From the NCBI GenBank assembly GCA_964404855.1, contig CAYOLO010000001.1:158245-222244 (forward strand): a stretch of DNA of 64,000 nucleotides, written 5' to 3'. Every line of letters begins with the position of its first letter. The stretch's first letter is position 1. This DNA comes from an uncultured Gammaproteobacteria bacterium (lineage in GTDB: Bacteria; Patescibacteriota; Microgenomatia; CAYQLK01). A program made the position numbers and the translations under genes. Below are positions 32,121 to 47,161 of this stretch, one piece after another. The notes beneath the pieces were generated by a model, which worked only from the letters and a program-made list of their open reading frames with translations, was not told where the DNA came from and made no database searches.

Positions 32121-32280
32121 GATGTTGCACTTGACCCACCCAACCCATTCGCGGGCAACGTTAAGGAACTCCCTAAAGATTCATTTACAAAATTGTTTAA
32201 ATTAGTTATCATTATAGTATCAAGAAAGAAACCTTTATATTATATTCTATATACTATAATGTTATATAATTAGAAAAGAT

Positions 32281-32484
32281 ATGTCAAATAATAAAATTGC
32301 TGAAAACTTAAAGAAACTACGGGCTAAAAAAGGGCTTTCCCTTGAGAAAATAGCTCGCCTTGCCGATTTATCCCTTAACACTATTGTTAAGGTTGAAAAC
32401 GGAGTAAATACAAACCCAACAATTGAAACACTAACTAAGATCGCCAAGGCGCTTGAGGTTGGCGTTGATGATTTAATAAAGTAA
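32281..32484 (+). CDS. XRE-family HTH regulator; probable R-M controller (C) protein
   Basis: 67 aa: KLRAKKGLSLEKIARLADLSLNTIVKVENGVNTNPTIETLTKIAKALEV is a canonical XRE helix-turn-helix. Size and position directly upstream of a DNA methyltransferase match C proteins. Confidence 0.65.
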   Translation: MSNNKIAENLKKLRAKKGLSLEKIARLADLSLNTIVKVENGVNTNPTIETLTKIAKALEVGVDDLIK

Positions 32485-32486
32485 TT

Positions 32487-33269: not shown

Positions 33270-33271
33270 TT

Positions 33272-34171: not shown

Positions 34172-34175
34172 AATT

Positions 34176-35249
34176 ATGAATTATATCGGCAGTAAATTAT
34201 CATTATTGGAATTTTTAGAAGAATCAATTAATAAAGTAGTTGATAAAAACTGCGATACTTTTTGTGATTTATTTGCGGGAACTGGAATTGTTGGAAGTTA
34301 TTTTAAAAGAAAGGGTTATAAAATAATCGCTAATGATATTCAATATTACAGCTATGTTTTAAATAGGCACTATATAGGAAATCACAAAGAATTAAATTTT
34401 GCAAAACTAACAAAAGAAATCCCCAATTTAAAAAGTATTGATGTAAAAAATAGGAAAAATTTTGTTTGCAATTATTTATCAGATTTAAAAGGTGTAAAAG
34501 GATTTATTTATAAAAATTATTGTCTTGGAGGATCAAAAGATCAGACAGAACCACGACAATATTTTTCCGATGAAAACGGAATGCGTTGCGATGCTATCCG
34601 TCAAAAAATTGAAAACTGGAAAGAGCAAAGTTTAATTTCTAATGACGAATATTATTTTTTGATTACAAGTTTAGTTGAGTCAATTGATAAATACGCAAAT
34701 ACGGCTTCCGTATATGGTGCTTTTCTGAAAAAACTAAAAAAGACAGCTCAAAATAATTTAATTTTAAAACCCGCTGAATTGATAATAAACGACCAAGACC
34801 ACGAAGTTTTTAACGAAGATATAAATAAAGTAGCAGGAAAAATTAAAGGCGATATTTTGTATTTAGATCCACCATATAATCAAAGACAATACGCGACAAA
34901 TTATCATATGCTTGAAACTATCGCAAAATATGATAATCCTGAAATTCATGGAAAAACTGGTTTGCGCGAATATCAAAATCAAAAGTCCCTTTATTGTTCA
35001 AGGACACAAGTAAAAAAAGCATTTAAGGATTTGATTTTGAAAGCAAAAGCAAAATATATCTTTTTAAGCTATAACAACGAGGGTTTAATGACTTTAGGCG
35101 ATATTCAAGAAATAATGAGCTTACGGGGCAAATACGGTAATTTTACGAAAGAATATAATCGTTTTAAGGCGGATAAGTCAGAAAACAGAAACTATACTGC
35201 GAATAAAACTGTTGAGTATTTGCATTATGTAGTTTGTGAAAAAGCATAA
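34176..35249 (+). CDS. Dam-family (D12 class, alpha-type) N6-adenine DNA methyltransferase
   Basis: N-terminal NYIGSKLSLLEFL...FCDLFAGTGIVG (D12-class motif X/I) and DILYLDPPYNQRQYATNYH (motif IV DPPY). Confidence 0.8.
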   Translation: MNYIGSKLSLLEFLEESINKVVDKNCDTFCDLFAGTGIVGSYFKRKGYKIIANDIQYYSYVLNRHYIGNHKELNFAKLTKEIPNLKSIDVKNRKNFVCNYLSDLKGVKGFIYKNYCLGGSKDQTEPRQYFSDENGMRCDAIRQKIENWKEQSLISNDEYYFLITSLVESIDKYANTASVYGAFLKKLKKTAQNNLILKPAELIINDQDHEVFNEDINKVAGKIKGDILYLDPPYNQRQYATNYHMLETIAKYDNPEIHGKTGLREYQNQKSLYCSRTQVKKAFKDLILKAKAKYIFLSYNNEGLMTLGDIQEIMSLRGKYGNFTKEYNRFKADKSENRNYTANKTVEYLHYVVCEKA

Positions 35250-35266
35250 ACTATAAGCTATGAAAT

Positions 35267-37642
35267 ATGAAAATCCGAAAAATACAAACTATAAAAAATT
35301 ACAAATCCTTTTCGGATTTTTCTTGGGATAAATTTTGTAAAAATTGTTCCAATAACGAACAAACACTCTCTAATTACAATGTAATCTTTGGAGAAAATGG
35401 CTCTGGGAAGTCATCAATTTGTGATATTCTGAAAAATCTTTCGCAAATTCAAAATTTTCCAAACACTTCACCCGATCTCGCGGAAATAGAAATAAAAAAT
35501 GGAAGTAATCAAGTTTATAAATTTGAAAATGGAAGTTGGACACCAAACCAGTTAAATAAAAATTCCTTTTTATTTTTTGATGTCGATTTTATTAGTGCCA
35601 ATGTTCACACGCATGGCGAACGGTCAAATCAACAAGGCAGACATTCACAAAATTCAGGGAAAATGATTATTGATTTAGACGATAAGGCAAATCAGCTAAA
35701 AATCGTTGTAAAAGAAAAGAAAGAGGAATCGGATAATTTTGACAAAATTAATGCCGATATTTTAAACAAAAATTTTACCGATAAAGACAAAGAGCTTTCC
35801 GCTATTTACAAAGATAAAAGCGAACAAGAAATAAAGGATGAAATTTCAAAAAAACAGGAAGAAGCCAAAAAAATTGAGTTGGATTTATCAGCATTACAAA
35901 AGATAAACAAAAAATATTCGGAAATAAGTCAGTTACCCATTATCAATCAGCTTTCTTTCTCTTCTTCAATATCCACAAAAGAAATCTACTCGGAATTAGT
36001 TTTGAGACAGTTAAAGGAAAAAGCGCAAGATCAGGCGGACGAAAAAATAAAAGCACATTTTGAAAAACACAAAAGATTTATTGAGACAGCCAAGGATCAA
36101 ATACCGAAGGATTATCAAAAATCCGATTGTCCGTTGTGTATGCAACCCCTCGCTAATGCTTCAAAATTTATTGAATATTATAGGATTGCTTTTGATCAAA
36201 CATATGAAAACGAGAAAAGAAAATTTTTAACGGACATACAGAATTTAAAAAGTGAATTGGAAACCTTAAAATCCTCAATAAGTCTTTTACCGACAAAAGT
36301 GCTTGGAATTTTTAATTCTTTAGAAAAAATCAAAACTGATTTTGAAATTCAGGATATTTATAAACTCGAAGAAAAAACGGAATATACCGAAAAATTTAGT
36401 AAAATTTCTATCGCTCAAATAGACGAGCTTATTTTGAATTTAGAAGCGCTGAAAAGTATTGAGCGAAAAGAAATAAAACTTTCAGAAACTTATGACAAAA
36501 TAACAGACGGAGTGAAAGAAATAGCAAGTAAAATTAATGATTTTAATAAAATAATTGACGACAAAAACAAGGTCATTTCTGCGTTCAAGGGTAAATATTC
36601 TGATCAAAATAAAATTACTAACGAAATTCAGGAAAAAACTAAAAATCAAGCAGAGCTTCAAGAAACAACCCAGTTTTTAATAAATGACAAAATTCAGTCA
36701 ATCAAAAATCAAAACGCGGCGGTTCTAAAACAAAAAGCTTTGGCTGAAGTATTGAAAAAAGCTCAAGAAGATTTGAAAAATCATCTCGCCAATAGCATAC
36801 CAGAAAGCGTTATTATAAAAATGATTGATATTTTAGGAAAGTTTAATTTAAGTTTTACGCTTGAACATATCAAACCAGCACCAAACACGAAGGACTATTC
36901 TTTTTCATTTAAAATTAAAGATCAAAAAGGGCATGAGAGAGATTTTAAAGATGGGCTTTCAGAGGGCGAGCGACAGTTGATTTCCTTGGCTTTTTTCTTT
37001 TCTATCAATGAAAGTTTGTTGGACAAATCAAATATAGTTTTGATTTTTGATGACCCAATAACCAGTTTAGATTCGCCAAATTTGAAAATACTTGCCGACT
37101 TGATTCACGAAAAAACACAGGAATTTTCGCAAGTAATTATTTTTACTCATCACCCTTTATTTTATAAATATGTGGCTAAATGCGAAAATCCTAATCCGTG
37201 CAAATTTGGCGTTTTGAAAAATCATGACGCTTTTGGTGGTAGTTTTATTTTCTTTGATCCCGGATTTGATTTAACGGCAGAAATGCAAAAGTGCAATGAG
37301 GAAATAAAACAGAACGCACAAAGCGGAAATTTAAAACCCGAAGAAATTGCCTTGAAATACGGACAACTTTTGCGTCTTGCCGTTGAAAAATTTATCAAGC
37401 ACGAATTATTGATGTGGAATAAAGAAAGTAATTTTGAAAAAGAAATAATAGCAAATTTATCAAAAAGCAAAAGTAAAATTCAAAAACTAGATGACAGTGA
37501 TTTGGAAATAATGACAAACATTCATAAATACTGCAATCATTCAAACCTTTTACATGCGGATAAAGAAAATCCGTCGGCACTTTCGGAACTGATGACACAT
37601 ATTGATAAATTTGTTATTATTCAAGATAAGGTAAATCTGTAA
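35267..37642 (+). CDS. RloC-like protein: Rad50/SMC-type split ABC ATPase with coiled-coil CxxC zinc hook and C-terminal candidate anticodon-nuclease domain
   Basis: 791 aa. Walker A GENGSGKSSICDIL near the N-terminus. ~450 aa of coiled coil with central hook DYQKSDCPLCMQPL. Signature/Q-like SEGERQLISLAFFF, Walker B/D-loop VLIFDDPITSLD, H-loop IIFTHH. C-terminal ~150 aa contains R-x3-E (RLAVE) followed by His-containing segment HKYCNHSNLLH, reminiscent of the PrrC/RloC nuclease triad. Confidence 0.5.
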   Translation: MKIRKIQTIKNYKSFSDFSWDKFCKNCSNNEQTLSNYNVIFGENGSGKSSICDILKNLSQIQNFPNTSPDLAEIEIKNGSNQVYKFENGSWTPNQLNKNSFLFFDVDFISANVHTHGERSNQQGRHSQNSGKMIIDLDDKANQLKIVVKEKKEESDNFDKINADILNKNFTDKDKELSAIYKDKSEQEIKDEISKKQEEAKKIELDLSALQKINKKYSEISQLPIINQLSFSSSISTKEIYSELVLRQLKEKAQDQADEKIKAHFEKHKRFIETAKDQIPKDYQKSDCPLCMQPLANASKFIEYYRIAFDQTYENEKRKFLTDIQNLKSELETLKSSISLLPTKVLGIFNSLEKIKTDFEIQDIYKLEEKTEYTEKFSKISIAQIDELILNLEALKSIERKEIKLSETYDKITDGVKEIASKINDFNKIIDDKNKVISAFKGKYSDQNKITNEIQEKTKNQAELQETTQFLINDKIQSIKNQNAAVLKQKALAEVLKKAQEDLKNHLANSIPESVIIKMIDILGKFNLSFTLEHIKPAPNTKDYSFSFKIKDQKGHERDFKDGLSEGERQLISLAFFFSINESLLDKSNIVLIFDDPITSLDSPNLKILADLIHEKTQEFSQVIIFTHHPLFYKYVAKCENPNPCKFGVLKNHDAFGGSFIFFDPGFDLTAEMQKCNEEIKQNAQSGNLKPEEIALKYGQLLRLAVEKFIKHELLMWNKESNFEKEIIANLSKSKSKIQKLDDSDLEIMTNIHKYCNHSNLLHADKENPSALSELMTHIDKFVIIQDKVNL

Positions 37643-37985
37643 ATTTTTGGTGGCGCGCCAGTTTTCAACTGGCACAGCCTCAAATTCCGCCGAAAAAAAG
37701 AATCGTCCCCGCGAGGGCGTGGCGGAAGGGGGGTTTGGGGGGAATTCCGCCACGCCCGAGCGAATACAAAAAGCGGACAGCTCCGCCGTCCTGCTCGTTA
37801 AGAGCAGAACCCCGCAAAAAAGTTTTCTTTTCCTTTTAGAAGAAAAAATCCGGCGCGCGCAAATCAAAAAATGTGAAGAAAACTTTTTTGCGGGGTGGCG
37901 AGGTTTCCGAGCGACGGCGGGGCTGGCTTCCTTATTGGGGGTTTTGCTCAAAAAATGTTCGAACTTCGTCCAAAAAACACCGCCA
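37643..37985. repeat. IR-2b: GC-rich palindrome-dense repeat (inverted partner of 31778–32120), ending in CCGCCA
   Basis: See IR-2a. Contains the same 18-bp and 13-bp perfect internal palindromes in mirrored order. Ends ...CCAAAAAACACCGCCA|GGG at 37985. Confidence 0.8.
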
Positions 37986-38096
37986 GGGTTTTTGTTCGGT
38001 GTACAATTAATTTGTTATGTATTTTGGGCAAAAAGTAGTTGGATTTAATCAATTTTCATTTAATAAATTTTTAATAGAGGGGCGGTGAGTAGGTAA

Positions 38097-38519
38097 ATGT
38101 TTGCAACAGAAATAAACTATTTAGCAATGGTTGTAGCAGGTCTTGCGACTTATGCAATTGGAGCGTTGTGGTACTCACCTGTTCTTTTTATGAACGAATG
38201 GATGAAGGTAGCTGGCTTGGATAAAAAGAAAAATGCCAAAGTTGCTCAATCGCAGATGGTTCGAATGTACACTTTAGGGTTAATAGCTAATATGATCGCC
38301 GCTTTTGTTTTGGCAAGACTATTGGTCTGGACTAGAGCAGGGGATGATTTGGTTGGAGCTCTAAAAATCGGCGGTTGGTTGTGGCTCGGTTTTATAGCTG
38401 TTTGGATGATTAACAGCTGGTTGTACGAAAGCAAGCCAATTAAGTATTTTGTAATTAATTCTGGTTATGCCCTAGTAACTGTTCTTGTTGGAGCTGCGAT
38501 TCTTACGCTCTGGAGATAA
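38097..38519 (+). CDS. Small 3–4-TM membrane protein, hypothetical (DUF1761-like?)
   Basis: 140 aa. GALWYSPVLFMNEWMK motif and four hydrophobic helices. Confidence 0.4.
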   Translation: MFATEINYLAMVVAGLATYAIGALWYSPVLFMNEWMKVAGLDKKKNAKVAQSQMVRMYTLGLIANMIAAFVLARLLVWTRAGDDLVGALKIGGWLWLGFIAVWMINSWLYESKPIKYFVINSGYALVTVLVGAAILTLWR

Positions 38520-38530
38520 GTTAGTTAAAA

Positions 38531-38566
38531 AAAGACAGGCAATGTTTTTGGTCAGCCTGTCTTTTT
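38531..38566. terminator. Bidirectional rho-independent terminator between convergent genes
   Basis: AAAAAAA-GACAGGC-aatgtttttggtc-AGCCTGTC-TTTTTGG: perfect 7–8 bp stem flanked by A-run and T-run. Confidence 0.6.
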
Positions 38567-39214
38567 GGTGTTTTGGCTAGTTTTTTGGACAATGAACCAG
38601 AGCCAGTTATTATTGTTGGTTTCGGAGGAGGTGAAATCGATTACAGAGAAGCCGTTTCTGGTTAAAATTTCAGTAAATTCCTCCTTAGCGTAAAAAGAAA
38701 AAAATCTGCTGAAGGTTTTGTTTTGGTCAGTAACTCTTGATTTTTCGACTTCTTGAACCTGTTCGCCTTTACCTTCTTTGAGGCTGATAAAACCAATCCC
38801 GTTAACTTTTATATATTTGTTTATTTGAGTTAAGGCGAGTTCGATTTTGTTTTTTGGAACATGTAGTAAAACGGCGCTTGCCCAGAACCCATCGAATTCT
38901 GTGCCTCGTGGGAAGCTGAGGTCGTAGACACTAAATGGAAAAAATTTCGAGTTGGGGAGGGATTTTTGACACATTTGAATAAAGGATTTAGTGATATCGG
39001 TGCCTGTGTAATCGTATCCTTCGTTAATTAATCTTTTGGCATCATGACCATTTCCACATCCTATTTCTAAAATGTTACCTTTGGATAAATATTTTTTAAA
39101 AAACTTAATTTCGTCATCCTGAAAAGTCAGATTAGTAGTTGGTTTGTGCCAACTGTCAGCATTCTGTTCGTAGTATTCGACGGTTAGTTTTTCTTTGTTG
39201 GTAAGTTTTTGCAT
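38552..39214 (-). CDS. Class I SAM-dependent methyltransferase
   Basis: 220 aa. Motif I ILEIGCGNGHDAKRL and motif II-like region. Small-molecule/RNA MTase fold. Confidence 0.75.
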   Translation of the reverse strand: MQKLTNKEKLTVEYYEQNADSWHKPTTNLTFQDDEIKFFKKYLSKGNILEIGCGNGHDAKRLINEGYDYTGTDITKSFIQMCQKSLPNSKFFPFSVYDLSFPRGTEFDGFWASAVLLHVPKNKIELALTQINKYIKVNGIGFISLKEGKGEQVQEVEKSRVTDQNKTFSRFFSFYAKEEFTEILTRNGFSVIDFTSSETNNNNWLWFIVQKTSQNTKKTG

Positions 39215-39232
39215 AAAAGTAAATAATAAATC

Positions 39233-39324
39233 TGGCGGAGGGGGAGAGATTCGAACTCTCGGAAAGGAAAAATCCCTTCAGCAGTTTTCGAAACTGCCGC
39301 ACTAGTCCACTATGCGACCCCTCC
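39233..39324 (-). tRNA. tRNA-Ser (anticodon CGA), CCA encoded
   Basis: Revcomp GGAGGGGTCGCATAGTGGACTAGTGCGGCAGTTTCGAAAACTGCTGAAGGGATTTTTCCTTTCCGAGAGTTCGAATCTCTCCCCCTCCGCCA. Acceptor, D and T arms identical to tRNA-Ser(TGA) at 29949. Anticodon stem GCAGT/ACTGC, loop TTCGAAA. Confidence 0.85.
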
Positions 39325-39455
39325 ACTGCTCCAAGGACAAACCATTGGTTTTTCCTTGGTATTTCTTTTCCTAAATTGGAAAACTTGTACTGGCAGAGCC
39401 AGACACAAGTCGAATTATAATAGTTTTTATGATTGTTGGTTTTGTCTGGTAATTA

Positions 39456-40226
39456 TTAAAGAGTAGAAAATTGCAGGCGGAGGAATTTTTCCCTGAAATC
39501 TTGCGAGTGAGCAAAAAGCAGCCTGACCTTTTGAGTGGAGTAACTGATTTGAGCTTTGGTGACATTGTTAATTTGCTGACCATCGGCCATAAAAGCAACT
39601 GGGCGTCTTTCTGTGTCGAGGGCTGTTAGTGTTACTACCGAGTTGTGTGATAACTGGGCACTGCGCCAGTTGTGAAAAAGCGCTGGACAGATACCTGTGA
39701 GAACCAAATGGCGACTATCGATTGGTAAAATTTTGCCACCAGCTGAGGCGTTGTAAGAGGTTGAGCCGGCAGGAGTTGCGACAATGGCACCATCGCAGAC
39801 TAGTTTTTCAAATCTGATTTTGTCATTGACAGCTATTTCTATTCGGCAAGTTTGAGGTGTAGCTCGTTCGAAATAAAAATCATTAAAGGCTAAGGTGGTG
39901 CGAAGTTTTTTGTTACTACTAAACAGTTCGGCTTTCAGCAGACGGTTTTCGACGGTGTCAAATTCGCCGCTGATTATTTCATCAACAACATCTTCTTTGG
40001 CTTCGTTAAGCAAAAATCCTAGATGACCAAAGTTAAAACCGACGAATGGAATGTGGAGTGGATAATATTTTTTAATAGCAGTAAGCATTGTGCCGTCGCC
40101 GCCGAGCACAAGAATAAAATCAGCTTTTTGGTCTGGTTCGACTATTTCGAGCTTGCTTTTTATTTTTTTAATCAATACTGAAGAGGCGGGTAAACCTTGT
40201 CGGGAAACAAGTATGGCTTTTAGCAT
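39456..40226 (-). CDS. nadK: NAD(+) kinase
   Basis: 256 aa. FILVLGGDGTML (GGDG motif) and DGAIVATPAGSTSYNASAGGKILP (NAD kinase DG..TP.GSTAYS.SAGGP motif). Confidence 0.9.
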   Translation of the reverse strand: MLKAILVSRQGLPASSVLIKKIKSKLEIVEPDQKADFILVLGGDGTMLTAIKKYYPLHIPFVGFNFGHLGFLLNEAKEDVVDEIISGEFDTVENRLLKAELFSSNKKLRTTLAFNDFYFERATPQTCRIEIAVNDKIRFEKLVCDGAIVATPAGSTSYNASAGGKILPIDSRHLVLTGICPALFHNWRSAQLSHNSVVTLTALDTERRPVAFMADGQQINNVTKAQISYSTQKVRLLFAHSQDFREKFLRLQFSTL

Positions 40227-40306
40227 ATGGATATTTTAGTACGAAATTAAGAAAAAAGCCGACTTACACTCTTATTTGGAAGTCGGCTTTTGTTGTTGAT
40301 GTTGAA

Positions 40307-40798
40307 CTACTTGAGCGCGGTAAGCGTTTTGACAGCTTCGCGCATGGCGACGTCGAGGTAGATGGAGATGTTGGGATCACCGTCGTGGGCGGTTCCTGGG
40401 CACGGAATGTTGAGCCATTCTTCCCAGCGAATGTAGCAGCCTTGTTTGGCAGAATCTGCTCCGTATTGGGCGAAAAGGAAGTGTGTTGCATCTTCCTCGC
40501 TCATTTCTGGAGTTGTGACGCCGAACGCCGCACGGAGGTCATCACTGGTGAGGATTGTTCGTCCGGTGGTTTTGGCACGAGGGGATTGGATGACTTCCCA
40601 GTCCACGAACCATCGGTCAGTGCTAAGCTCGTCAGTCTGGCTGACGGTGAGTTTGGCCGCACTTCCCAGGATGACGAGCAGTCGTTTGGCTGCGTCGAAA
40701 CTTTTGACGTGCATTTTGAACCCGTGATGGTGGAACCACACAGGACGACCCATCCTTAGTTCAGGTTGGGTTCTGGTCATGGTTGAGGTTTGTGACAA
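40307..40798 (-). CDS. Hypothetical protein in a locally GC-rich segment
   Basis: 163 aa, no TM. Coding region ~55% GC versus ~38–42% elsewhere. No motif recognised. Confidence 0.35.
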   Translation of the reverse strand: MSQTSTMTRTQPELRMGRPVWFHHHGFKMHVKSFDAAKRLLVILGSAAKLTVSQTDELSTDRWFVDWEVIQSPRAKTTGRTILTSDDLRAAFGVTTPEMSEEDATHFLFAQYGADSAKQGCYIRWEEWLNIPCPGTAHDGDPNISIYLDVAMREAVKTLTALK

Positions 40799-40901
40799 GC
40801 GTGACCGCCTTTGTCTGGTAGTTTTAGGGGTGCTGTTAGAGTGCGAGGCGGAGAATACACTTATTTTGAAGCTATGTCAATTGTTAATTAACCTATAATA
40901 T

Positions 40902-41360
40902 TTGATTTTTGAGGCTAAATTTGATATAATTAGGGTTGGTAGCACTTTTGACAGGGAGCTTATTGGTTTGAGTAGTGACAGTTTGATCCAGTTCGGTGTT
41001 TTGGATGTGGCTCACAGTGACCCAAGCAGGACGCTGTGTGAATGCAATCTTAACGATTGCTCGGTTCAAATCATCGATGTCGAGGTGGAGATTCCGCTTG
41101 CGAACCACTACCACAAACTCAAAGATGAGACGTTTGTTCTCGTCGAGGGAGGTGGAGTGTTCTACGGTGTGGCTGTTGACGAGTACGGCAATAGGCTGGG
41201 AGAAGTCCAAGCCAGGCAGCTACTTGAAGGCGCTGTCATCAAGGTTCCGGCTTTTTTCGCTCACACTTTCATCCTTAGGTCTGGCAGTCGGCTGGTTTGC
41301 TTTTCGAGTAAGCCGTTCAACCCAGAAAACACAGATTTGCATCCACTTCAGCTTGTCTGA
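40902..41360 (+). CDS. Cupin-fold protein, WxcM/FdtA C-terminal-domain-like (sugar ketoisomerase-type), hypothetical
   Basis: 152 aa. ...ANHYHKLKDETFVLVEGGGVFYGV... resembles the His-containing beta-strand motifs of WxcM-like cupins. Weak. Confidence 0.3.
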   Translation: MIFEAKFDIIRVGSTFDRELIGLSSDSLIQFGVLDVAHSDPSRTLCECNLNDCSVQIIDVEVEIPLANHYHKLKDETFVLVEGGGVFYGVAVDEYGNRLGEVQARQLLEGAVIKVPAFFAHTFILRSGSRLVCFSSKPFNPENTDLHPLQLV

Positions 41361-41411
41361 AGAAGTGTGTGCAAAAGTCCTTTGCCCTCGATTAATTTCG
41401 GGGGCATTTTT

Positions 41412-41882
41412 TTAGTTAAGAAATTTAATAGCAAGATTGAGTAGACTAGCGAACGATACCCAAGCGATATATGGGTAAAGAAGACGAGAGGCGAGAGGAG
41501 AAAAAGGAGCGAATTTTTTGATAGTTAGAAAGATAGTTATCCAGAGAATGAGTATCTCAAATAAAGCAAACAGCGGAGATTTTAGTCCAAAGAAAATAAT
41601 GGACCAGAGTGTGTTAAGTACAAGTTGAGTTGCAAAAATAGTGATTGGTACTCTCTTGTCTTTTTTGGTTTTTGCGACCAGAACTAAATACAGTGATACG
41701 CCCATTAGGATGTAGAGTGTTGTCCAGACTGGGGCAAAAATCCAGTTCGGTGGATTGAAGAATGGCTTGTTAAGGGTTGAATACCAGGTGGGGATTGACG
41801 AAGCGGTGAAGAAGGAGCCGATACCGCCAGCAGAAAGGGAAACTAGTATTGAGAATGTAAGTTTTGGCAGGTTTAATTTCAT
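41412..41882 (-). CDS. tspO: TspO/MBR family tryptophan-rich sensory protein
   Basis: IPTWYSTLNKPFFNPPNWIFAPVWTTLYILMGVSLYLV matches the TspO signature (WY..L.KP.f.PP.w.F.PvWt.LY.lMG.). Five TM helices. Start taken at MKLNLPKL. Confidence 0.8.
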   Translation of the reverse strand: MKLNLPKLTFSILVSLSAGGIGSFFTASSIPTWYSTLNKPFFNPPNWIFAPVWTTLYILMGVSLYLVLVAKTKKDKRVPITIFATQLVLNTLWSIIFFGLKSPLFALFEILILWITIFLTIKKFAPFSPLASRLLYPYIAWVSFASLLNLAIKFLN

Positions 41883-42079
41883 TTTTTTATTTGACTGTCC
41901 TGGTTGCAAGAAATCTGGCGGAGAGGGAGGGATTGGATTTTTAGTCCATTTACCTCAAAACTCGTAATTTATTTATAAAATTTTAACAAATTACTCGTTT
42001 TTCGTTACCGAACCCTTGTGGTGGTTCAAAACAACCTACCCTCATATTTTTCATTACTGCCAACGCAGTTACGAAAAAT

Positions 42080-42172
<93 letters not shown>

Positions 42173-42200
42173 CAGAGCTTGTATATTCTACCTGACTGGC

Positions 42201-43082: not shown

Positions 43083-43601
43083 ATGAGCGAAATAATAATT
43101 CTTGTTGACGAAAACGATAACCAAGTAGGCACTGGTGAAAAAATGGAAGTTCATCGCGCGGGCAAATTGCACCGAGCTTTTAGTGTGTTTGTTTTTAATA
43201 GTCGTAATGAGATGTTGTTGCAGAGAAGGGCACTGACGAAATATCACTCGGGAGGGTTGTGGACCAATACTTGTTGTAGTCATCCAAGACCAGAAGAAAA
43301 AACAATGGACGGTGCTAAAAGAAGATTAATGGAAGAAATGGGGTTTGTGTGTGAACTTAAAGAAGTCGACTCTTTTGTTTATAAAACAGAGTTTGAAGGA
43401 TTGTTTGAACACGAATTTGACCATGTTTTGATTGGTAAGTACGAGGGTGATATTAAAGAGAACAAGGATGAGGTCGAAGAGTGGAAATGGATAGGTTTGA
43501 ATGAATTATATATTGATATAAAAAATAATCCAGATAAGTACACTTCGTGGTTTAAGATAGCTTTGGAGAGACTTAATTTCCTAGAACTTTTAGTTAAATA
43601 A
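43083..43601 (+). CDS. idi: Isopentenyl-diphosphate delta-isomerase, type 1 (Nudix fold)
   Basis: 172 aa. IILVDENDNQVGTGEKMEVHRAGKLHRAFSVFVFNSRNEMLLQRRALTKYHSGGLWTNTCCSHPRPEE...RRLMEEMGF matches IDI-1 including the catalytic Cys and the Nudix-like box. Confidence 0.85.
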   Translation: MSEIIILVDENDNQVGTGEKMEVHRAGKLHRAFSVFVFNSRNEMLLQRRALTKYHSGGLWTNTCCSHPRPEEKTMDGAKRRLMEEMGFVCELKEVDSFVYKTEFEGLFEHEFDHVLIGKYEGDIKENKDEVEEWKWIGLNELYIDIKNNPDKYTSWFKIALERLNFLELLVK

Positions 43602-44028
43602 TTTCATATTTGGAGTAATAAAGGTCGATAGTTGTTTTTATAGTTACTCGCCAAAATTTTTCCAAAAACTGCCTCCGACATTTTTGTCATCAATTTGGCT
43701 ACGTCCTGCGTTAAGAATGAATTAAATATTCATTCTCTCGTCGAGACATGAAAACCTGAAACTAAAAGGCAAGAAAAAGCCCGCTTGGAAACCAAGCGGG
43801 CTAGGGGTTGACGGCTCGAAGCCGAGAAAGAGGTGTTTGTGGCCTGAAGTCCAAGCTTAACGGATAGGTCCGTTGGCTAGAGCGAGAGCTTGGTTAAAAG
43901 CGACTGAAACACAGTTTCTCTGGTTTGAGCCAGGATGTGGAGACGAATTTCTTCGACATGGGGAGGTTGAGGTGCAAGCGAGCGCGCGTGAGCGCTAACC
44001 CTCCCTCAGGCGGACGGTCGAGGACGTC

Positions 44029-44988
44029 TTAGATCTGCAGGGCAAAGGCGGCCGGTTTGGGCTGCCAAAGCTGATGCATCGAACTCGAAGGGGAGCCGCG
44101 GGCGATGTTGCGGCCGTGTTCGGTGTTCGTGTTGCGGAGGAGTTCGGATTCGCCGGGGGTCGCTGCTGCGTTGTTGCGATGAACGGTGAAGACTGTGCCG
44201 GCGACGATCGGTGCGATGAGCGGATACGCGGATCCTGCTCCAAAGCGCTTGAGCGACGAAATCATGGCCGTTCCGGCTGAGGCGATGGCCCTTCGGAAAT
44301 ACGAGTTCGAGGTTCTGACGGCGCCGACGAATGTGATGAAGGCGGCGTGTAGTCGACCGAAGATCGCGCTGGTGACAGGATGCGTCTTGCGCGGGCTCGT
44401 CGTGGTGTTTTCGGCGGACAGCGTGTCGATGGCCTTGGCCACATGCGATGCACGTTTAAGGCCGAATCGTTTGCTTATCCCCGTGTCGTCGTCAAGTGAT
44501 GCCGAGTTGAAGAATGTGGTGCCGGCAAAACTTCGAGAACCCCTCGAGGTATGACGATGACCCATTTCTTGCCGTCGGATGTACCGAGGACTGGCGTTTT
44601 CAACGAGCGGGCCCATGTTGGCTACTCGCAGAAGGACCACGAAAGCGACCGTGACGGCGACGAATGCCCAGAGCTCCACAGGTCGGGACTGAGCGGTGGT
44701 GTTGCCGATGGTCGAGGCGACGGAGTCGGTGATGCCGAAGAAGACGTTCGCGACGTCGGTGACCGCACTGGTTGTGCTGCCGCGTATGTCGGGAAGGTTC
44801 GTATTCGGAGTCGAGAGGTCGTTGGTCGAAGGCGAGATTGCCTGCGAATCGACGGGCTCAGACAGGCTGGCTGCCGAAGCGCTCGACCATTCAGTCGCGA
44901 GCGTTACGAAGACGGCGAAGGCAGCGATGATGGCGATGAGCCACGCGATGCGTTTTCCGCCGACCGTTTGGGTAATTTCCCTGCTCAA
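44029..44988 (-). CDS. Hypothetical membrane protein encoded in an anomalously GC-rich (~60%) island
   Basis: 319 aa, longest ORF of an island (≈43780–45010) where all six frames are open. Two predicted TM helices (IAWLIAIIAAFAVFVTLA; LWAFVAVTVAFVVLL). No family recognised. Coding status uncertain. Confidence 0.3.
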   Translation of the reverse strand: MSREITQTVGGKRIAWLIAIIAAFAVFVTLATEWSSASAASLSEPVDSQAISPSTNDLSTPNTNLPDIRGSTTSAVTDVANVFFGITDSVASTIGNTTAQSRPVELWAFVAVTVAFVVLLRVANMGPLVENASPRYIRRQEMGHRHTSRGSRSFAGTTFFNSASLDDDTGISKRFGLKRASHVAKAIDTLSAENTTTSPRKTHPVTSAIFGRLHAAFITFVGAVRTSNSYFRRAIASAGTAMISSLKRFGAGSAYPLIAPIVAGTVFTVHRNNAAATPGESELLRNTNTEHGRNIARGSPSSSMHQLWQPKPAAFALQI

Positions 44989-45325
44989 TAGACTGGTCCT
45001 CCTTTTGTGAGGGAGTCTAGTTTTTAGACTTAAACCCTAATGTTTCAAGGGTCCAAGTCGTGTTGGTTGAAAATGAAAACTGGTCGGAACAAGTATCAGG
45101 TCTTTGTGGCTACCCTAAGATAGAGTAGTCCGAAATTCCTCCTTTTAATTGGAAAGGTACGACACTTTTCACTGGCTGTGAAATTGATGTCTAGCTAAAT
45201 TGTACACCCCGAATGCAAGTTTTTGGACTACTGTAATAAGATTGGTTGAAAAAGAAAGGATGTAAATACTCAAAATGGCTTCGTTTTTGGGTATTTTATG
45301 GTAATAGTGTGATATATTCCTAGTC

Positions 45326-47161
45326 ATGATTGACCAAGTTGATCAAGTAAAAGATAGGTCGGATATTGCTGAAATTATTGGCGGTTATGTACAGCTAAAA
45401 AGTGCAGGACGAAACATGAAAGGATTATGTCCGTTTCATGGCGAAAAAACACCGTCGTTTATGGTCAACCCCGAAAGAGGTACTTGGAAGTGTTTTGGTT
45501 GTGGGGAAGGTGGGGATGTTTTTACCTTTTTGGAAAAAATTGAAGGTCTAGATTTTGCGGAGGCTTTGGAAAAACTGGCTAAAAGAGCAGGGATTGTTTT
45601 AGAAAAAAAATTCAACGGACAAAAAGACAAACAGAAAGAGACATTGCTGGCTATTAATGAAGCGGCTAAGGATTTTTATCACAAAATTTTGCTTACACAT
45701 CCTGTTGCTCAAAAGTCTCGTGAATATCTTAAAGATAGAGGGTTAAAGGTCGACGATATTAAGACTTTTGAACTAGGTTATGCGCCTAATTCTTGGGATT
45801 CTTTATTCAATATGCTGGTCAAAAAAGGATTTAGTCAAGCAGATATTGCCATGTCGGGACTGGTAATAAGTAAAGACAGAGGTGGATTTTATGACAGGTT
45901 TAGAGGAAGAGTGATGTTTCCGATAAGAGATATTGCGGAAAGATTGGTTGGGTTTTCAGGGCGAACAATGATGAATGATCCAAAGGAAGCAAAGTATGTG
46001 AATACCCCAGAGACACCGATGTTTAGTAAGAGGAATTTGTTATACGGAATACATTTGTCTCGGCAGTTCGTGACCAAAGAAAATAGTGTGATTTTGGTCG
46101 AAGGGCAATTTGATATGGTTTCTTCGTTCCTGGCCGGAACAAAAAATGTCGTGGCTACAGGTGGTACGGCACTAACTGATGGGCAGTTGAGGGTGATAAA
46201 ACGATTAACTGAGAATGTTTTGATTTGTTTTGATTCTGATTCGGCTGGTGACGCTGCTTCTAGACGAGGTATTGAGATGGCAGAAAATGCAGGACTGGTT
46301 GTTAAGGTGGTAACTCTGGTTGGAGTTAAAGACCCTGATGAAATGGTAAGAACTAATTTGGCTGGATGGAAGGAAGCGATTAAAAATGCTCAAGGAGTGT
46401 ATGACTATTACATCGACTGGGCGTTTCGTAGTTATGACAGGACAACTAGCGAAGGTAAAAGAAAAATCGGTCAGGAATTGATGCCTGTTTTGACTGGGAT
46501 TAGTGATGAAATTGTTAAAAATCACTATGTGAAGATTGTGGCCGACAGGCTTGATACAACCGAAGATGTAATTATGCGAAGTATGAGTCAGGTTAAATCT
46601 AAGTCATTAGACTCTTTAACAGATTTTTCTAAGGTTGATGATTTGGCTAATAAAAAAATTGATGATGATATTGTTAATCACAAAGCAGGGCTCGAGGAAT
46701 ATTTTTTGGCACATTTATTACAGATTGGTGATTATTCCTGTGAGCTATCGATATGGCCAGAGGTAGGAGATATTAATGACACGGAGTTAAAACAAATATA
46801 TCAGGCATTAATTGAATATGAGCCATTTAGAAGTGCGGGGAAGTTTAAAAAAGTTGAAGACAAAAATGAATATTTTAATCAGTCGAGGTTTATTAGCAAC
46901 TTACCAGAAGAATTGGTTATTAGGGCGGACAAATTGTGTTTACTGGACTTATCAGAGGTGATTGATGAGCCTCATGCGTTTGGTAATTCGCTTGAAAAAT
47001 CAGCAATTAAGCTTTGTACGCTTGCATTAAAAACAAATTTGGATACAATAACACGACAGTTAAAAGAACTGGATGCTTCGGGTGGGGTGAAAGACCTAGC
47101 CATTCAAAGCCGGAAGTTTGCCAGATTATCTAAAAAACTAAGGTCAATGCAGAAAAGTTAA
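45326..47161 (+). CDS. dnaG: DNA primase
   Basis: 611 aa. CHC2 zinc finger CPFHGEKTPSFMVNPERGTWKCFGCGEGGDVFTFL and TOPRIM (ILVEGQFDMVS...DSDSAGDAA). Confidence 0.93.
   Translation: MIDQVDQVKDRSDIAEIIGGYVQLKSAGRNMKGLCPFHGEKTPSFMVNPERGTWKCFGCGEGGDVFTFLEKIEGLDFAEALEKLAKRAGIVLEKKFNGQKDKQKETLLAINEAAKDFYHKILLTHPVAQKSREYLKDRGLKVDDIKTFELGYAPNSWDSLFNMLVKKGFSQADIAMSGLVISKDRGGFYDRFRGRVMFPIRDIAERLVGFSGRTMMNDPKEAKYVNTPETPMFSKRNLLYGIHLSRQFVTKENSVILVEGQFDMVSSFLAGTKNVVATGGTALTDGQLRVIKRLTENVLICFDSDSAGDAASRRGIEMAENAGLVVKVVTLVGVKDPDEMVRTNLAGWKEAIKNAQGVYDYYIDWAFRSYDRTTSEGKRKIGQELMPVLTGISDEIVKNHYVKIVADRLDTTEDVIMRSMSQVKSKSLDSLTDFSKVDDLANKKIDDDIVNHKAGLEEYFLAHLLQIGDYSCELSIWPEVGDINDTELKQIYQALIEYEPFRSAGKFKKVEDKNEYFNQSRFISNLPEELVIRADKLCLLDLSEVIDEPHAFGNSLEKSAIKLCTLALKTNLDTITRQLKELDASGGVKDLAIQSRKFARLSKKLRSMQKS

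What the first reader, a model, noticed from the sequence alone, without database searches (positions are those of the whole stretch)
43640..45010. ~1.3-kb island of ~60% GC (and a milder one at 40260–41400) embedded in ~40% GC sequence
Between idi and dnaG the composition jumps sharply. All six frames are open, and the longest frame (−, 319 aa) encodes an Ala/Arg/Gly-rich two-TM protein of actinobacterial flavour. The 5' flank of the island (43640–44030) carries several hairpins (agaatgaat-taaat-attcattct; agcccgcttgg-aaa-ccaagcgggct). One possibility is acquisition from a high-GC donor; epibiotic CPR bacteria live on Actinobacteria hosts. The other is an assembly chimera or contamination. 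A second patch of elevated GC (40260–41400) covers a hypothetical gene and a cupin-like gene.
Basis: partly seen in the sequence, partly recalled or inferred. Interest (0 to 1): 0.55.

Follow-up and report, generated by a model that had tools for sequence, protein, structure and literature searches.

The report
Host-like high-GC gene in CPR bacterium
The GC-rich island is one real, fast-evolving membrane-protein gene in a tiny CPR bacterium, and its first 40 codons were copied from the surface-layer protein gene of Chloroflexota bacteria, which points to a possible host or partner for a lineage whose hosts are unknown.

Summary
Window 43,800-45,000 is about 60% GC against 38% elsewhere, and this is the only such stretch in 64 kb. 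It is not a chimera: six independent assemblies reproduce the island and both junctions at 99.5-100%.

The island is one minus-strand gene, X (44029-44988, 319 aa, TTG start, AGGAGG Shine-Dalgarno), plus a conserved structured 3'UTR and an intrinsic terminator. Only this frame is stop-free, in all nine homologues, so "all six frames open" is wrong.

X sits between dnaG and idi in related genomes. Cluster-mates of the flanking proteins (>=90% identical) are named Candidatus Curtissbacteria. X is always 54-62% GC in 38-40% GC flanks, so it is an old resident, not a recent arrival.

The first ~40 codons match the N-terminus of a ~1,400-1,550-aa Chloroflexota protein family at 76-85% nucleotide identity. 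That family is probably the Tepidiforma S-layer protein. No link to Actinobacteria was seen. The rest of X has no relative among 1.84 billion representative proteins, but its codon usage is Chloroflexota-like (r = 0.86).

X is hypervariable and mosaic. DnaG is 99% identical where X is 55%, and some segments are 97-98% identical between genomes whose flanks are 80% identical.

Best reading: an old capture from Chloroflexota, now a recombining two-TM envelope protein. Its function is unknown.

The parts
44029..44988 (-). Gene X: 319-aa ORF with a TTG start at 44986-44988 and a TAA stop at 44029-44031. It is 60% GC, with GC1/2/3 = 0.54/0.55/0.72.
   Evidence: ORF list. Codon-position GC. No stops in this frame in 9 of 9 homologues, against 1-23 stops in every other frame; shuffles give P(0 stops) < 1/2000. 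Nine homologues found.
44869..44988 (-). Leader, residues 1-40: a basic N-tail (SREITQTVGGKR) plus the first hydrophobic helix. It is homologous to the N-terminus of the large Chloroflexota surface proteins that are probably S-layer proteins.
   Evidence: tblastn hits to 16 Chloroflexota-type loci at 59-82% aa identity. Nucleotide identity 76-85% over 72-102 nt. Alignment of start regions. pN/pS = 0.19. AF2 helix at residues 4-39.
44680..44868 (-). Predicted external loop, residues ~41-103. It is Ser/Thr/Ala-rich and contains the conserved motif NLPDIRGST and a hypervariable stretch.
   Evidence: Alignment A1. pN/pS rises to 1.1-1.15 over residues 70-106. Two allele classes, with 53-71% nucleotide identity to L009 although the flanks are 93% identical.
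44617..44679 (-). Second transmembrane helix, residues 104-124 ((F/L)WAFVAVTVAFVVLLRV), followed by the basic motif PRYIRRQ.
   Evidence: Hydropathy peak at residues 101-130. AF2 helix at 104-124. Largely invariant columns. pN/pS = 0.25-0.40.
44032..44616 (-). Basic, low-complexity tail, residues 125-319. It is predicted to be disordered and cytoplasmic, is built of mosaic segments, and has islands of conservation (GISKRxGLKRASH, GAGSAYPLIA, and a C-terminal PAxxL motif).
   Evidence: pLDDT < 50. pN/pS = 0.75-1.13. Segment 44320-44400 is 97-98% identical to L001, whose flanks are 80% identical. Length differences among the nine alleles (270-338 codons) all keep the frame open.
44989..45019 (-). 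Translation-initiation region. The Shine-Dalgarno AGGAGG (44998-45003) lies 9 nt before the TTG, inside a predicted hairpin (UAGACUCCCU...AGGAGGACCAGUCUA).
   Evidence: Read from the sequence. Fold of the 5' region, z = -2.5. Flagged as a stem-loop. The AAGGAGGAC block is conserved in win/L007/L009/L030, while L001 and L028 have GGGGG-type Shine-Dalgarno sequences.
45020..45206 (-). Low-GC 5' untranslated region with a candidate extended -10 promoter (TGTACAAT, 45199-45206) and a conserved upstream AAGGAGGAA box at about 45138-45146.
   Evidence: Conserved blocks in alignment A4. The consensus promoter scan found no sigma-70 site, so the promoter assignment is an inference only.
43804..44028 (-). 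Conserved, structured 3' untranslated region. Element A is at about 43960-44007 (GAGGGAGGG...GCGC hairpin...CCUCAACCUCCC). Element B is at 43850-43897 (a CCAAGC/GCUUGG stem enclosing an AACGGA/UCCGUU hairpin).
   Evidence: Fold z = -4.2, with 0 of 200 shuffles as stable. Conserved in all X loci that reach that far. The element B pattern occurs once per X locus and nowhere else in the window or in the Chloroflexota or P0010 loci. All cells are paired, 2 pairs show compensatory changes, and slid controls give 21-42% paired.
43769..43802 (-). Intrinsic terminator of X: an 11-bp stem with 8 G-C pairs and a 3-nt loop, then UUUUUCUU. It is probably shared with the convergent idi gene.
   Evidence: Terminator scan. 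Weak Rfam matches here only resemble terminators. Hairpins at the same position in the homologues.
40307..40798 (-). The milder GC patch, gene 1: a 163-aa ORF with GC 0.547 and GC3 0.61. It matches no family.
   Evidence: It is 87% identical in L009 and was not found in the L001 locus.
40902..41360 (+). The milder GC patch, gene 2: a 152-aa ORF with GC 0.477 and GC3 0.52. The cupin-type assignment is weak.
   Evidence: Pfam Cupin_1 E = 0.029, below the family cut-off. PHROG 'cysteine dioxygenase' E = 7e-4. It is 92% identical in L009 and L026.

Best explanation
The island is one transcription unit on the minus strand. It runs from a low-GC native 5'UTR, through a Shine-Dalgarno sequence and a TTG start, gene X and a structured 3'UTR, to an intrinsic terminator.

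X is a real protein-coding gene of foreign, high-GC origin. It has been resident between dnaG and idi in a clade of CPR bacteria labelled Curtissbacteria. Its start codon and first ~40 codons were captured from the gene for the major surface protein of Tepidiformia/Dehalococcoidia-type Chloroflexota. That protein is probably their S-layer protein. The rest of X keeps Chloroflexota-like codon usage but has no detectable relative.

The product is inferred to be a small envelope protein with this topology:
- a basic N-tail inside the cell;
- helix 1, which is either a signal-anchor or a signal peptide cleaved at ASA|AS;
- an external loop of about 65 aa;
- helix 2;
- a basic, disordered tail of about 195 aa inside the cell.

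The leader and helix 2 are under purifying selection. The loop and tail evolve about as fast as synonymous sites.

Whole segments of X are exchanged between species by homologous recombination, giving mosaic alleles. This exchange means X sequences share more recent ancestry than their genomes. That is the most likely reason the GC content has only partly decayed towards the 38% of the genome.

Shown: the gene is real, the composition is anomalous, synteny is conserved, the leader is homologous to Chloroflexota, alleles are mosaic, and the 3'UTR is structured.

Inferred: the direction and age of the transfer, the topology, the envelope or partner-interaction role, and the reason GC persists.
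For: **The gene is real.**
- It is the only frame without stops, in 9 of 9 homologues.
- GC3 exceeds GC1 and GC2.
- AGGAGG lies 9 nt before the TTG start.
- pN/pS is 0.19 in the leader and 0.25-0.40 around helix 2.

**It is not an artefact.**
- Independent assemblies are identical or near-identical across both junctions.

**It is a long-term resident.**
- The order dnaG-X-idi holds in L001, L002/L007 and L009/L026. L028 shows the dnaG side and L032 the idi side.
- X is 54-62% GC in 38-40% GC flanks.

**The composition is foreign.**
- GC3 is about 4.9 SD above the window's other ORFs.
- Codon-usage correlation (RSCU) is r = 0.86 with Tepidiformia genes and -0.41 with window genes.
- Derived single-sequence substitutions run GC-to-AT 69 and AT-to-GC 26, so the gene is decaying towards AT.

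**There is a Chloroflexota link.**
- The leader is 59-82% identical in amino acids, with the same TTG start, in 16 loci.
- blastn gives 76-85% identity.
- The leader heads nearly all of the 44 homologues of the large Chloroflexota protein, including those in closed Tepidiforma genomes.
- The 1419-aa T. bonchosmolovskayae member matches, by organism and length, the S-layer protein predicted in bioRxiv 10.1101/2024.05.28.596244.
- Tepidiforma has a tetragonal S-layer by cryo-tomography (PMC10284905).

**The body is an orphan.**
- An exhaustive phmmer search of 1.84 billion representative proteins finds only family members.

**Alleles are mosaic.**
- Sliding-window identities run against the flank identities.
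- DnaG is 99% identical where X is 55%.
- dS of X is decoupled from dS of dnaG.

**The organism label.**
- Cluster-mates are named Candidatus Curtissbacteria.
- The window carries a Gram-positive-type type IV secretion (T4SS) cluster next to dnaA/dnaN.
Against: - No homologue of the body of X was found in any Chloroflexota. Only ~40 codons tie X to that phylum, and high r values for codon usage would be seen with any C3-rich, high-GC donor.
- pN/pS is about 1 over the C-terminal 170 codons. That is what a non-functional sequence would show, so only the conserved reading frame argues for function there.
- AlphaFold gives no confident fold (pLDDT 39).
- There is no expression, proteomic or localisation evidence.
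- If the acquisition pre-dates the split of lineages whose dnaG synonymous sites are saturated, simple amelioration should have lowered GC3 far more than is seen. The recombination explanation for this is plausible but untested.
- Three related assemblies are titled 'uncultured Gammaproteobacteria bacterium', which conflicts with the Curtissbacteria label.
Confidence: 0.7

Rival explanations
1. X is a native gene whose GC content was driven up in place. The locus is a recombination hot spot, and GC-biased gene conversion, or selection for GC-rich codons, raised GC3. No foreign origin is needed.
For: - There is strong evidence of recombination and mosaic alleles.
- GC3 is higher than GC1 and GC2.
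- The GC-rich tract coincides with the recombining segment.
- The island has the same GC-skew sign as its surroundings.
Against: - The leader is homologous at the nucleotide level to a Chloroflexota gene family in which it is universal and compositionally native.
- Derived substitutions are biased from GC to AT (69 against 26). This is the opposite of a locus being pushed upwards.
- Codon preferences match Tepidiformia in detail (r = 0.86).
- A 22-point jump in GC would be far beyond the effects reported for bacterial gene conversion. This last point rests on general knowledge and was not tested here.
Confidence: 0.08
2. The functional product is RNA. On this view the island is a large GC-rich structured RNA, or a carrier for the conserved 3' element, and the long ORF is secondary.
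For: - The 3'UTR is strongly structured (z = -4.2). It is conserved in every locus and shows compensatory pairs.
- The tail of the ORF evolves at pN/pS of about 1, with lower pS in some segments.
- GC-rich islands in AT-rich genomes are often structured RNAs. This is general knowledge.
Against: - The 960-nt ORF folds no better than shuffled sequence (z = -0.43, 7 of 20 shuffles as stable).
- No Rfam family matches, even at E = 10.
- The reading frame is intact in 9 of 9 divergent copies, and every length difference between them keeps it open.
- The leader and helix 2 show clear purifying selection at the protein level.
- The N-terminus is homologous to bona fide protein N-termini.
Confidence: 0.07
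3. The island is an assembly chimera or a contaminating high-GC fragment joined to CPR sequence.
For: - The compositional edges are sharp.
- Public short-read contigs carrying X are mostly only 1.2-1.6 kb long.
Against: - Those short contigs extend into the low-GC flanks on both sides at 99.5-100% identity in six runs.
- Syntenic copies occur in at least six other assemblies from different projects.
- The low-GC 5'UTR and the GC-rich ORF form one coherent gene with a Shine-Dalgarno sequence, a start codon and a terminator.
Confidence: 0.01
4. X is a host-directed factor. The CPR cell keeps the exact N-terminal anchor of its Chloroflexota partner's S-layer protein so that X can engage the partner's envelope or its S-layer export and anchoring machinery. 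One version has X delivered through the type IV secretion system and inserted as a two-TM hairpin, as the Tir receptor of enteropathogenic E. coli is. The variable loop would then evolve in an arms race.
For: - The leader is under strong purifying selection in the CPR copies (pN/pS = 0.19), although ordinary signal peptides tolerate change.
- The same leader is conserved even at synonymous sites in Chloroflexota (82% third-position identity over codons 1-13).
- The hairpin topology fits the positive-inside rule.
- The loop has pN/pS of at least 1.
- A second lineage of about 41% GC carries another leader-bearing, GC-rich gene next to a TrwB/VirD4-like coupling protein.
- The window encodes a type IV secretion cluster.
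Against: - There is no evidence of any physical association, secretion or delivery.
- No type IV secretion signal can be tested here.
- X is not linked to the secretion genes in the window; they lie about 33 kb away.
- pN/pS near 1 is equally well explained by relaxed constraint.
- Protein delivery would not explain why donor-like codon usage is kept.
Confidence: 0.12

Closest known systems
Predicted S-layer protein family of Tepidiformia/Dehalococcoidia (e.g. Tepidiforma bonchosmolovskayae QFG03093.1, 1419 aa; Ca. Amarobacter glycogenicus MBK8560774.1, 1513 aa)
   Same: - Both have a TTG (or equivalent) start and the N-terminal 40 residues MSKEIAQTVGGKRIAWLIAIVAAFAVFATLG.
- Identity is 59-82% in amino acids and 76-85% in nucleotides.
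- Both have high GC with a preference for C-ending codons.
   Different: - X is 270-338 aa, not about 1,400-1,550 aa.
- X lacks the whole ectodomain and the highly conserved C-terminal domain (...FRWSLITW...YWIAITGPSSVTWTIASNVN).
- X has a second TM helix and a basic tail that are absent from the S-layer proteins.
- No similarity beyond the leader appears by blastn, tblastx or profile search.
- X sits in a 38% GC genome.
Host-to-epibiont horizontal gene transfer and compositional genomic islands (a general class; amelioration as modelled by Lawrence and Ochman, from general knowledge)
   Same: - GC and codon usage are atypical for the genome.
- A donor-like sequence is present.
- The composition is decaying towards that of the recipient.
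   Different: - The island is a single gene with no integrase, tRNA or convincing flanking repeats at its edges.
- It is conserved in synteny across a clade, not patchily distributed.
- Only the 5' module can be traced to a donor.
Mosaic, recombining surface-protein loci under diversifying selection (e.g. Neisseria porB/opa or tbpB-type loci; from general knowledge)
   Same: - Conserved flanks surround a hypervariable gene.
- Alleles are assembled from segments shared across lineages.
- The conserved signal and anchor regions contrast with a variable exposed region.
   Different: - No silent cassettes or repeats occur in the 64-kb window.
- The allele is identical or nearly so across six samples, so there is no rapid within-population switching.
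- Most of the variable part is the predicted cytoplasmic tail.
- Surface exposure is unproven.
Conserved specialised signal peptides (YSIRK-G/S, KxYKxGKxW, ESPR; from general knowledge)
   Same: A signal or anchor sequence that is conserved far more than export alone requires, attached to large surface proteins.
   Different: - No NCBIfam or Pfam model matches this leader.
- It is conserved at synonymous sites too.
- Here it is shared between phyla by transfer.

Membership tests
Horizontally acquired compositional island | Base composition and codon usage deviate from the host genome | tested here: met
   GC is 0.60 against 0.38. GC3 is 0.716 against 0.336 +/- 0.078. RSCU correlation with window genes is r = -0.41.
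Horizontally acquired compositional island | Sequence homology to a plausible donor lineage | tested here: met
   Homology covers the leader only: 76-85% nucleotide identity to Chloroflexota surface-protein genes. The body has no homologue anywhere.
Horizontally acquired compositional island | Mobility hallmarks at the borders (integrase, tRNA target, direct repeats) | tested here: not met
   There is no integrase or tRNA at the borders. The only border repeat is a 13-nt imperfect pair, which is probably chance.
Horizontally acquired compositional island | Patchy presence among close relatives (recent gain) | tested here: not met
   X is present at the same locus in every related locus retrieved, including genomes with 83-84% DnaG identity.
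Tepidiformia/Dehalococcoidia S-layer protein family | Conserved N-terminal leader MSKE(I/L)AQTVGGKR plus a hydrophobic helix | tested here: met
Tepidiformia/Dehalococcoidia S-layer protein family | Large beta-rich ectodomain and the conserved C-terminal domain (FRWSLITW...TWTIASNV(N/D)) | tested here: not met
   Neither is present in X. There is no similarity beyond residue ~45-80. X is not a member of this family; it only carries the leader.
Structured non-coding RNA (GC-rich island in an AT-rich genome) | Match to a described RNA family | tested here: not met
   Rfam 15 at gathering thresholds, and at E <= 10 on 43400-45400, gives only terminator-like noise.
Structured non-coding RNA (GC-rich island in an AT-rich genome) | Folding more stable than composition-matched shuffles, with covariation | tested here: inconclusive
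   ORF body: z = -0.43, not met. 3'UTR: z = -4.2 with two or three compensatory pairs among six distinct sequences, met for that part only.
Diversity-generating retroelement target gene | A template/variable repeat pair, a nearby reverse transcriptase, and adenine-specific variation confined to a short C-terminal region | tested here: not met
   The island has no repeat elsewhere in the window. Variation is spread along the gene and includes indels. The allele is identical or nearly so across six samples. Reverse transcriptase was not searched for exhaustively.
Assembly chimera | Junctions not reproduced in independent data | tested here: not met
   Both junctions are reproduced at 99.5-100% in six separate runs. 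Raw-read depth cannot be tested with these tools.
Candidate Phyla Radiation (Candidatus Curtissbacteria) genome | Taxonomic placement of the window | tested here: inconclusive
   Cluster-mates at >=90% identity of the window's DnaG and Idi are named [Candidatus Curtissbacteria bacterium] (MBP6979800.1, MBP6979798.1). RpoD is 402 aa, and a Gram-positive-type T4SS lies next to dnaA. Three related assemblies are titled 'uncultured Gammaproteobacteria bacterium'. There is no rRNA or marker-gene phylogeny.

The most novel reading that the evidence does not exclude
A Curtissbacteria-type CPR bacterium keeps, under purifying selection, the exact N-terminal anchor of the S-layer protein of Tepidiformia/Dehalococcoidia because those Chloroflexota are its hosts. 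On this reading X is a host-interface protein. It might be inserted into, or dock onto, the host envelope through the host's own S-layer export and anchoring route, in a Tir-like way. Its variable loop would evolve in an arms race. The leader would then be a sequence-level marker for pairing uncultured CPR lineages with their hosts. A second CPR-like lineage carrying another leader-bearing GC-rich gene suggests that the capture has happened more than once.
Probability: 0.12. Interest if true: 0.85.

Novelty: new variant of a known kind. Interest (0 to 1): 0.55.

Why it matters
Hosts are unknown for almost all CPR lineages outside the Saccharibacteria, and the Microgenomates/Curtissbacteria are among those without one. 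A gene fragment that clearly comes from the surface-layer gene of a specific Chloroflexota group gives a concrete host or partner hypothesis. The fragment has been kept under purifying selection across a CPR clade. The candidate partners are Tepidiformaceae such as Ca. Amarobacter, small rods that are abundant in wastewater plants (PMC10746286). The hypothesis can be tested by FISH and by co-occurrence analysis.

The finding is also a clean example of three things:
- a compositional island that is old, syntenic and still far from ameliorated;
- a new gene assembled from a captured start-and-anchor module plus an orphan body;
- a Chloroflexota S-layer leader that is conserved even at synonymous sites and matches no curated family model.

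If the link is only an old accidental uptake of DNA, the finding is a well-documented but ordinary horizontal-transfer island.

Tried and rejected
- **Curated protein libraries.** Pfam, NCBIfam, PHROGs, PADLOC and PDB searches of X and of the family profile found nothing.
- **RNA families.** Rfam found nothing at gathering thresholds or at relaxed thresholds.
- **Mobile-element databases.** Plasmid and phage DNA databases (blastn) and IMG/VR gave no match.
- **Structure prediction.** AlphaFold2 with the 9-sequence alignment gave pLDDT 39, so no fold search was justified.
- **Short-query protein search.** A search with the 43-aa leader consensus returned only one fragment, because the word prefilter fails on short queries. 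That search was wasted.
- **Fusion hypothesis.** I tested whether X is a fusion of the S-layer leader with the small gene downstream of the S-layer gene in Chloroflexota (L040:7643-8203, L041:7360-7932). There is no similarity; hhalign probability is 0.3%.
- **S-layer 3'UTR hypothesis.** I tested whether X shares the 3'UTR of the S-layer gene. The motif is absent from the Chloroflexota loci.
- **Silent cassettes.** A search for cassettes or repeats of X in the window found none.
- **Giant structured RNA.** The ORF folds at z = -0.43, so this is rejected.
- **P0010 5'UTR homology.** Apparent homology between the 5'UTRs of the X family and the P0010 family turned out to be a short chance match by blastn.
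- **P0010 body homology.** P0010 aligns with X only over the leader. A resemblance I noticed around its C-terminal helix (PLVE...ISKRFG) is not statistically supported, and I do not claim it.
- **Border repeats.** A 13-nt imperfect repeat flanking the island is judged to be chance.
Full report
**1. The observation**

A 1-kb profile of the whole window gives GC 0.605 for 44001-45000. Windows elsewhere average 0.382 +/- 0.037, with a maximum of 0.506. In 50-nt steps, GC rises at about 43,800 and falls at about 45,000. A weaker rise, to 0.52-0.55, covers 40250-40850 and 41000-41300. The compositional claim is therefore correct and far outside the window's own variation.

**2. What lies in the island**

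The minus strand carries a 319-codon ORF at 44029-44988 with a TTG start.
- Nine nucleotides upstream of the start is AGGAGG, at 44998-45003.
- 226 nt downstream of the stop is a strong intrinsic terminator, with its stem at 43778-43802 followed by a T-run on the minus strand.
- GC by codon position is 0.54/0.55/0.72.

The statement that all six frames are open is wrong. Within the ORF the other five frames hold 3-15 stops. Shuffled sequence of the same composition averages 8.6 stops per frame and never reached zero in 2,000 trials.

**3. Not a chimera**

The identical protein is encoded on contigs from several independent sequencing runs. Six of these contigs align to the window, five at 100% and one at 99.5%, and run through both GC junctions into the low-GC flanks. 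L034 covers 43519-45122, reaching into idi.

**4. A conserved resident**

A protein search found nine homologues at 39-67% identity, plus one distant leader-only match. Where enough context exists, the gene lies between dnaG and a NUDIX-type idi, as it does in the window: L001, L002/L007 and L009/L026, with partial context in L028 and L032.

Every copy is GC-rich (0.54-0.62, GC3 0.63-0.76) in flanks of 0.38-0.40. All nine copies keep the same frame free of stops, while every other frame has 1-23. Their lengths range from 270 to 338 codons and the frame stays open in each.

**5. The organism**

The window's DnaG and Idi fall in 90%-identity clusters. Members of those clusters are named 'DNA primase [Candidatus Curtissbacteria bacterium]' (MBP6979800.1) and 'isopentenyl-diphosphate Delta-isomerase [Candidatus Curtissbacteria bacterium]' (MBP6979798.1). 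The window's own contig is 660,813 bp long.

The window starts with dnaA and dnaN, followed by a Gram-positive-type type IV secretion cluster: a PrgI-family protein, a VirB4/TraG-like ATPase and a 1,165-aa M23 peptidase. RpoD is only 402 aa.

Three related assemblies are titled 'uncultured Gammaproteobacteria bacterium'. I regard that label as doubtful, but I could not run a marker-gene phylogeny.

**6. The link to Chloroflexota**

A scan of one genome per species found three full-length relatives. It also found 16 loci in MAGs labelled Dehalococcoidia, Tepidiformales/Tepidiformaceae or Anaerolineaceae that match only residues 1-17 to 1-80, at 41-82% identity. Single contigs were labelled Holophagae and Planctomycetales.

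In those loci the match is the N-terminus of very long ORFs that start with TTG. At the nucleotide level the window's first ~90 nt are 76-85% identical to them.

A search with one of these proteins returned 44 homologues, mostly of about 1,400-1,550 aa. Nearly all begin MSKE(I/L)AQTVGGKR(I/V)AWL(I/L)A(I/L)(V/L)AAFAV and end in a highly conserved C-terminal domain. They include proteins from the closed genomes of three cultured Tepidiforma species and from Ca. Amarobacter glycogenicus.

Two papers connect this family to the S-layer:
- A survey of S-layer proteins lists a 1,419-aa, p4-symmetric S-layer protein for T. bonchosmolovskayae (bioRxiv 10.1101/2024.05.28.596244, supplementary table). 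The family member from that species is also 1,419 aa. The UniProt accessions differ, so I call the identification probable, not proven.
- Tepidiforma cells carry a tetragonal S-layer by cryo-tomography (PMC10284905).

Among 16 Chloroflexota genes, the first 13 codons are 90% identical in nucleotides and 82% identical at third positions. Identity falls to 36-44% after codon 33. An upstream GACTGGAGAGGTAA box is also shared.

The leader is universal and compositionally native in Chloroflexota, and it sits in a compositional island in the CPR genome. The transfer therefore ran from Chloroflexota to CPR. This direction is an inference.

**7. The rest of the protein**

Residues 47-319 were compared with 1.84 billion representative proteins by exhaustive phmmer. 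Only family members were found. blastn and tblastx against the Chloroflexota loci find nothing beyond the leader. These loci included two complete S-layer genes with their flanks. The small gene downstream of the S-layer gene is unrelated to X.

The body nevertheless uses synonymous codons as Tepidiformia genes do (r = 0.86) and unlike the window's own genes (r = -0.41). It shares the preference for C-ending codons. Substitutions seen in a single sequence run GC-to-AT 69 times and AT-to-GC 26 times. Both results fit a GC-rich immigrant that is slowly decaying.

**8. The protein**

Hydropathy analysis and the AlphaFold model agree on two helices, at residues ~4-39 and 104-124. The rest has pLDDT below 50, and the mean is 39. 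The N-tail carries a net positive charge, and the stretch after helix 2 is strongly basic. A topology with both ends inside the cell and a ~65-residue external loop therefore fits the positive-inside rule. An ASA|AS site after helix 1 would also allow cleavage. Both points are inferences.

**9. Mode of evolution**

X evolves far faster than its neighbours.

| Comparison | DnaG aa identity | X aa identity |
|---|---|---|
| Window vs L009 | 99% | 55% |
| Window vs L007 | 94% | 66% |
| Window vs L001 | 84% | 62% |

Overall dN/dS is 0.4-0.7 for X and 0.01-0.03 for dnaG. Along the gene, pN/pS varies:

| Region | pN/pS |
|---|---|
| Leader | 0.19 |
| Around helix 2 | 0.25-0.40 |
| Loop, residues 70-106 | ~1.1 |
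| Tail, residues 150-319 | 0.75-1.13 |

Sliding-window nucleotide identity shows mosaicism:

| Comparison | Flank identity | X segment | Segment identity |
|---|---|---|---|
| Window vs L009 | 93% | 44400-44950 | 53-71% |
| Window vs L009 | 93% | 43841-44320 | 88-98% |
| Window vs L007 | 82-86% | 44655-44850 | 91-97% |
| Window vs L001 | 80% | 44320-44400 | 97-98% |

Synonymous divergence of X is lower than that of dnaG for distant genomes and higher for the closest one. Segments of X have therefore moved between species by recombination.

The allele is stable within the window's own species: it is identical or nearly identical in six samples. This argues against phase variation or a diversity-generating retroelement. 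No repeat or silent copy exists in the window.

**10. RNA features**

- The ORF folds no better than shuffles (z = -0.43), and no Rfam family matches. The island is therefore not a giant structured RNA.
- The 3'UTR (43804-44028) is strongly structured (z = -4.2) and conserved in every locus that extends that far.
- Its element B (43850-43897) occurs exactly once per X locus and nowhere else in the sequences I hold. All its cells are paired, two helix positions show compensatory changes, and a third does so under an alternative gap placement. Slid controls fall to 21-42% paired.
- The Shine-Dalgarno sequence sits in a predicted hairpin, and the 5'UTR folds at z = -2.5.
- What these elements do is unknown. 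mRNA stabilisation and translational control are reasonable guesses.

**11. A second lineage**

P0010 (L003-L006) shares only the leader with X (hhalign probability 98.8% over 45 residues). It also keeps the Chloroflexota-type upstream box. From its TTG start the gene is 58% GC, in a genome of about 41% GC. It lies between a TrwB/VirD4-like ATPase gene and a 5'-3' exonuclease gene. This looks like an independent capture of the same module.

**12. The milder patch**

The 163-aa ORF (40307-40798, GC3 0.61) and the 152-aa ORF with weak cupin-type matches (40902-41360, GC3 0.52) are conserved at ordinary levels in L009 and L026, at 87-92% aa identity. They were not found in the L001 locus. The 163-aa ORF matches no library. 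They may also be foreign.

**13. Verdict**

The island is a real, old, horizontally derived gene. Its start-and-anchor module comes from the probable S-layer protein gene of Tepidiformia/Dehalococcoidia-type Chloroflexota. It is now a hypervariable, recombining, two-helix envelope protein gene with its own structured 3'UTR.

Persistence of high GC is best explained by donor composition plus lateral exchange of alleles, which keeps X sequences younger than their genomes. GC-biased conversion or selection may contribute, but the GC-to-AT substitution bias and the donor-like codon usage argue against them as the origin.

The function is not established. The strong conservation of a foreign leader makes a role at the interface with a Chloroflexota partner an attractive hypothesis, but it is unproven.

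Noticed in passing
L010-L025, L040:2980-3100, L041:2980-3100: In Chloroflexota the start region of the large surface (probable S-layer) protein gene is conserved even at synonymous sites across classes. A GACTGGAGAGGTAA box, a TTG start and codons 1-13 are 90% identical in nucleotides and 82% identical at third positions. A/T-ending codons are used in genomes whose GC3 exceeds 80%. No Pfam or NCBIfam model covers this leader. This suggests a sequence-specific translation, regulation or export signal.
   Followed up: partly
L001:9876-9974 (= L008:4001-4099): One relative has a tandem duplicate of the module. A 32-codon mini-ORF (LSKEIAQTVGGKRFAVLLALIAVFAVLAKFLG*) with its own Shine-Dalgarno sequence and TTG start lies about 30 nt upstream of the real X start. 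It could be a remnant of recombination at the leader or a leader-only peptide.
   Followed up: partly
L003:4538-5320, L004:1609-2391, L005, L006: A second family (P0010) occurs in a genome of about 41% GC. It has the same leader and the Chloroflexota-type upstream box but an unrelated 58% GC body. It lies next to a TrwB/VirD4-like coupling ATPase gene and a 5'-3' exonuclease gene. The database ORF call starts 34 codons too early. P0010 also shares a 9-residue identical stretch (IGSATCGAT) with the small protein encoded downstream of the S-layer gene in Ca. Amarobacter (L040:7643-8203), of uncertain significance (E = 0.018).
   Followed up: partly
window 3684-12241: A Gram-positive-type type IV secretion cluster lies close to dnaA/dnaN. 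It comprises a PrgI-family protein (10208-12241), a VirB4/TraG-like ATPase (7244-9106) and a 1,165-aa protein with an M23 peptidase domain (3684-7181), plus neighbours that match no Pfam family.
   Followed up: no
window 30000-37642: A very low-GC stretch (0.275-0.306 at 34-37 kb) lies next to a large serine recombinase gene (30000-31535) and a 791-aa AAA_13 ATPase gene (35267-37642). It may be a mobile or defence island of the opposite compositional sign. tRNA genes flank it at 28.9-30.0 kb.
   Followed up: no
window 23031-23483: Rfam finds a tmRNA of 453 nt (105 bits; the model is 374 positions long, so there are insertions). ARAGORN did not report it.
   Followed up: no
L007, L008, L009 record titles versus MBP6979798.1 and MBP6979800.1: Taxonomic labels conflict. 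Three related assemblies are titled 'uncultured Gammaproteobacteria bacterium', while cluster-mates (>=90% identical) of the window's DnaG and Idi are named Candidatus Curtissbacteria. Gene content (402-aa RpoD, Gram-positive-type T4SS) fits the latter.
   Followed up: partly
window 1-64000: GC skew is positive on the plus strand across almost the whole window, dipping slightly negative only at 30-32 kb (typically 0.1-0.4 per kb, with cumulative skew rising almost throughout). This fits a leading strand running from the dnaA end. The island shares the sign of the skew although its gene is on the lagging strand.
   Followed up: no
window 43831-43843 and 45098-45110: A 13-nt imperfect direct repeat (AGGTGTTTGTGGC / AGGTCTTTGTGGC) brackets the island almost exactly. 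It is probably chance, but it is the only candidate for a border repeat.
   Followed up: no
window 44188-44221 and 44908-44941: An internal 34-nt repeat (71% identical) links the leader helix (residues ~16-27) to a weaker hydrophobic stretch near residue 256-267 (AYPLIAPIVAGTVF). This hints at an internal duplication of the anchor or a third membrane-associated segment.
   Followed up: no
window 28903-42173: Four tRNA-Ser genes (anticodons GGA, TGA, CGA, GCT) lie within 14 kb. The tRNA-Ser(GCT) is 100% identical to its counterpart in relatives whose protein-coding flanks are 80-86% identical in nucleotides.
   Followed up: no
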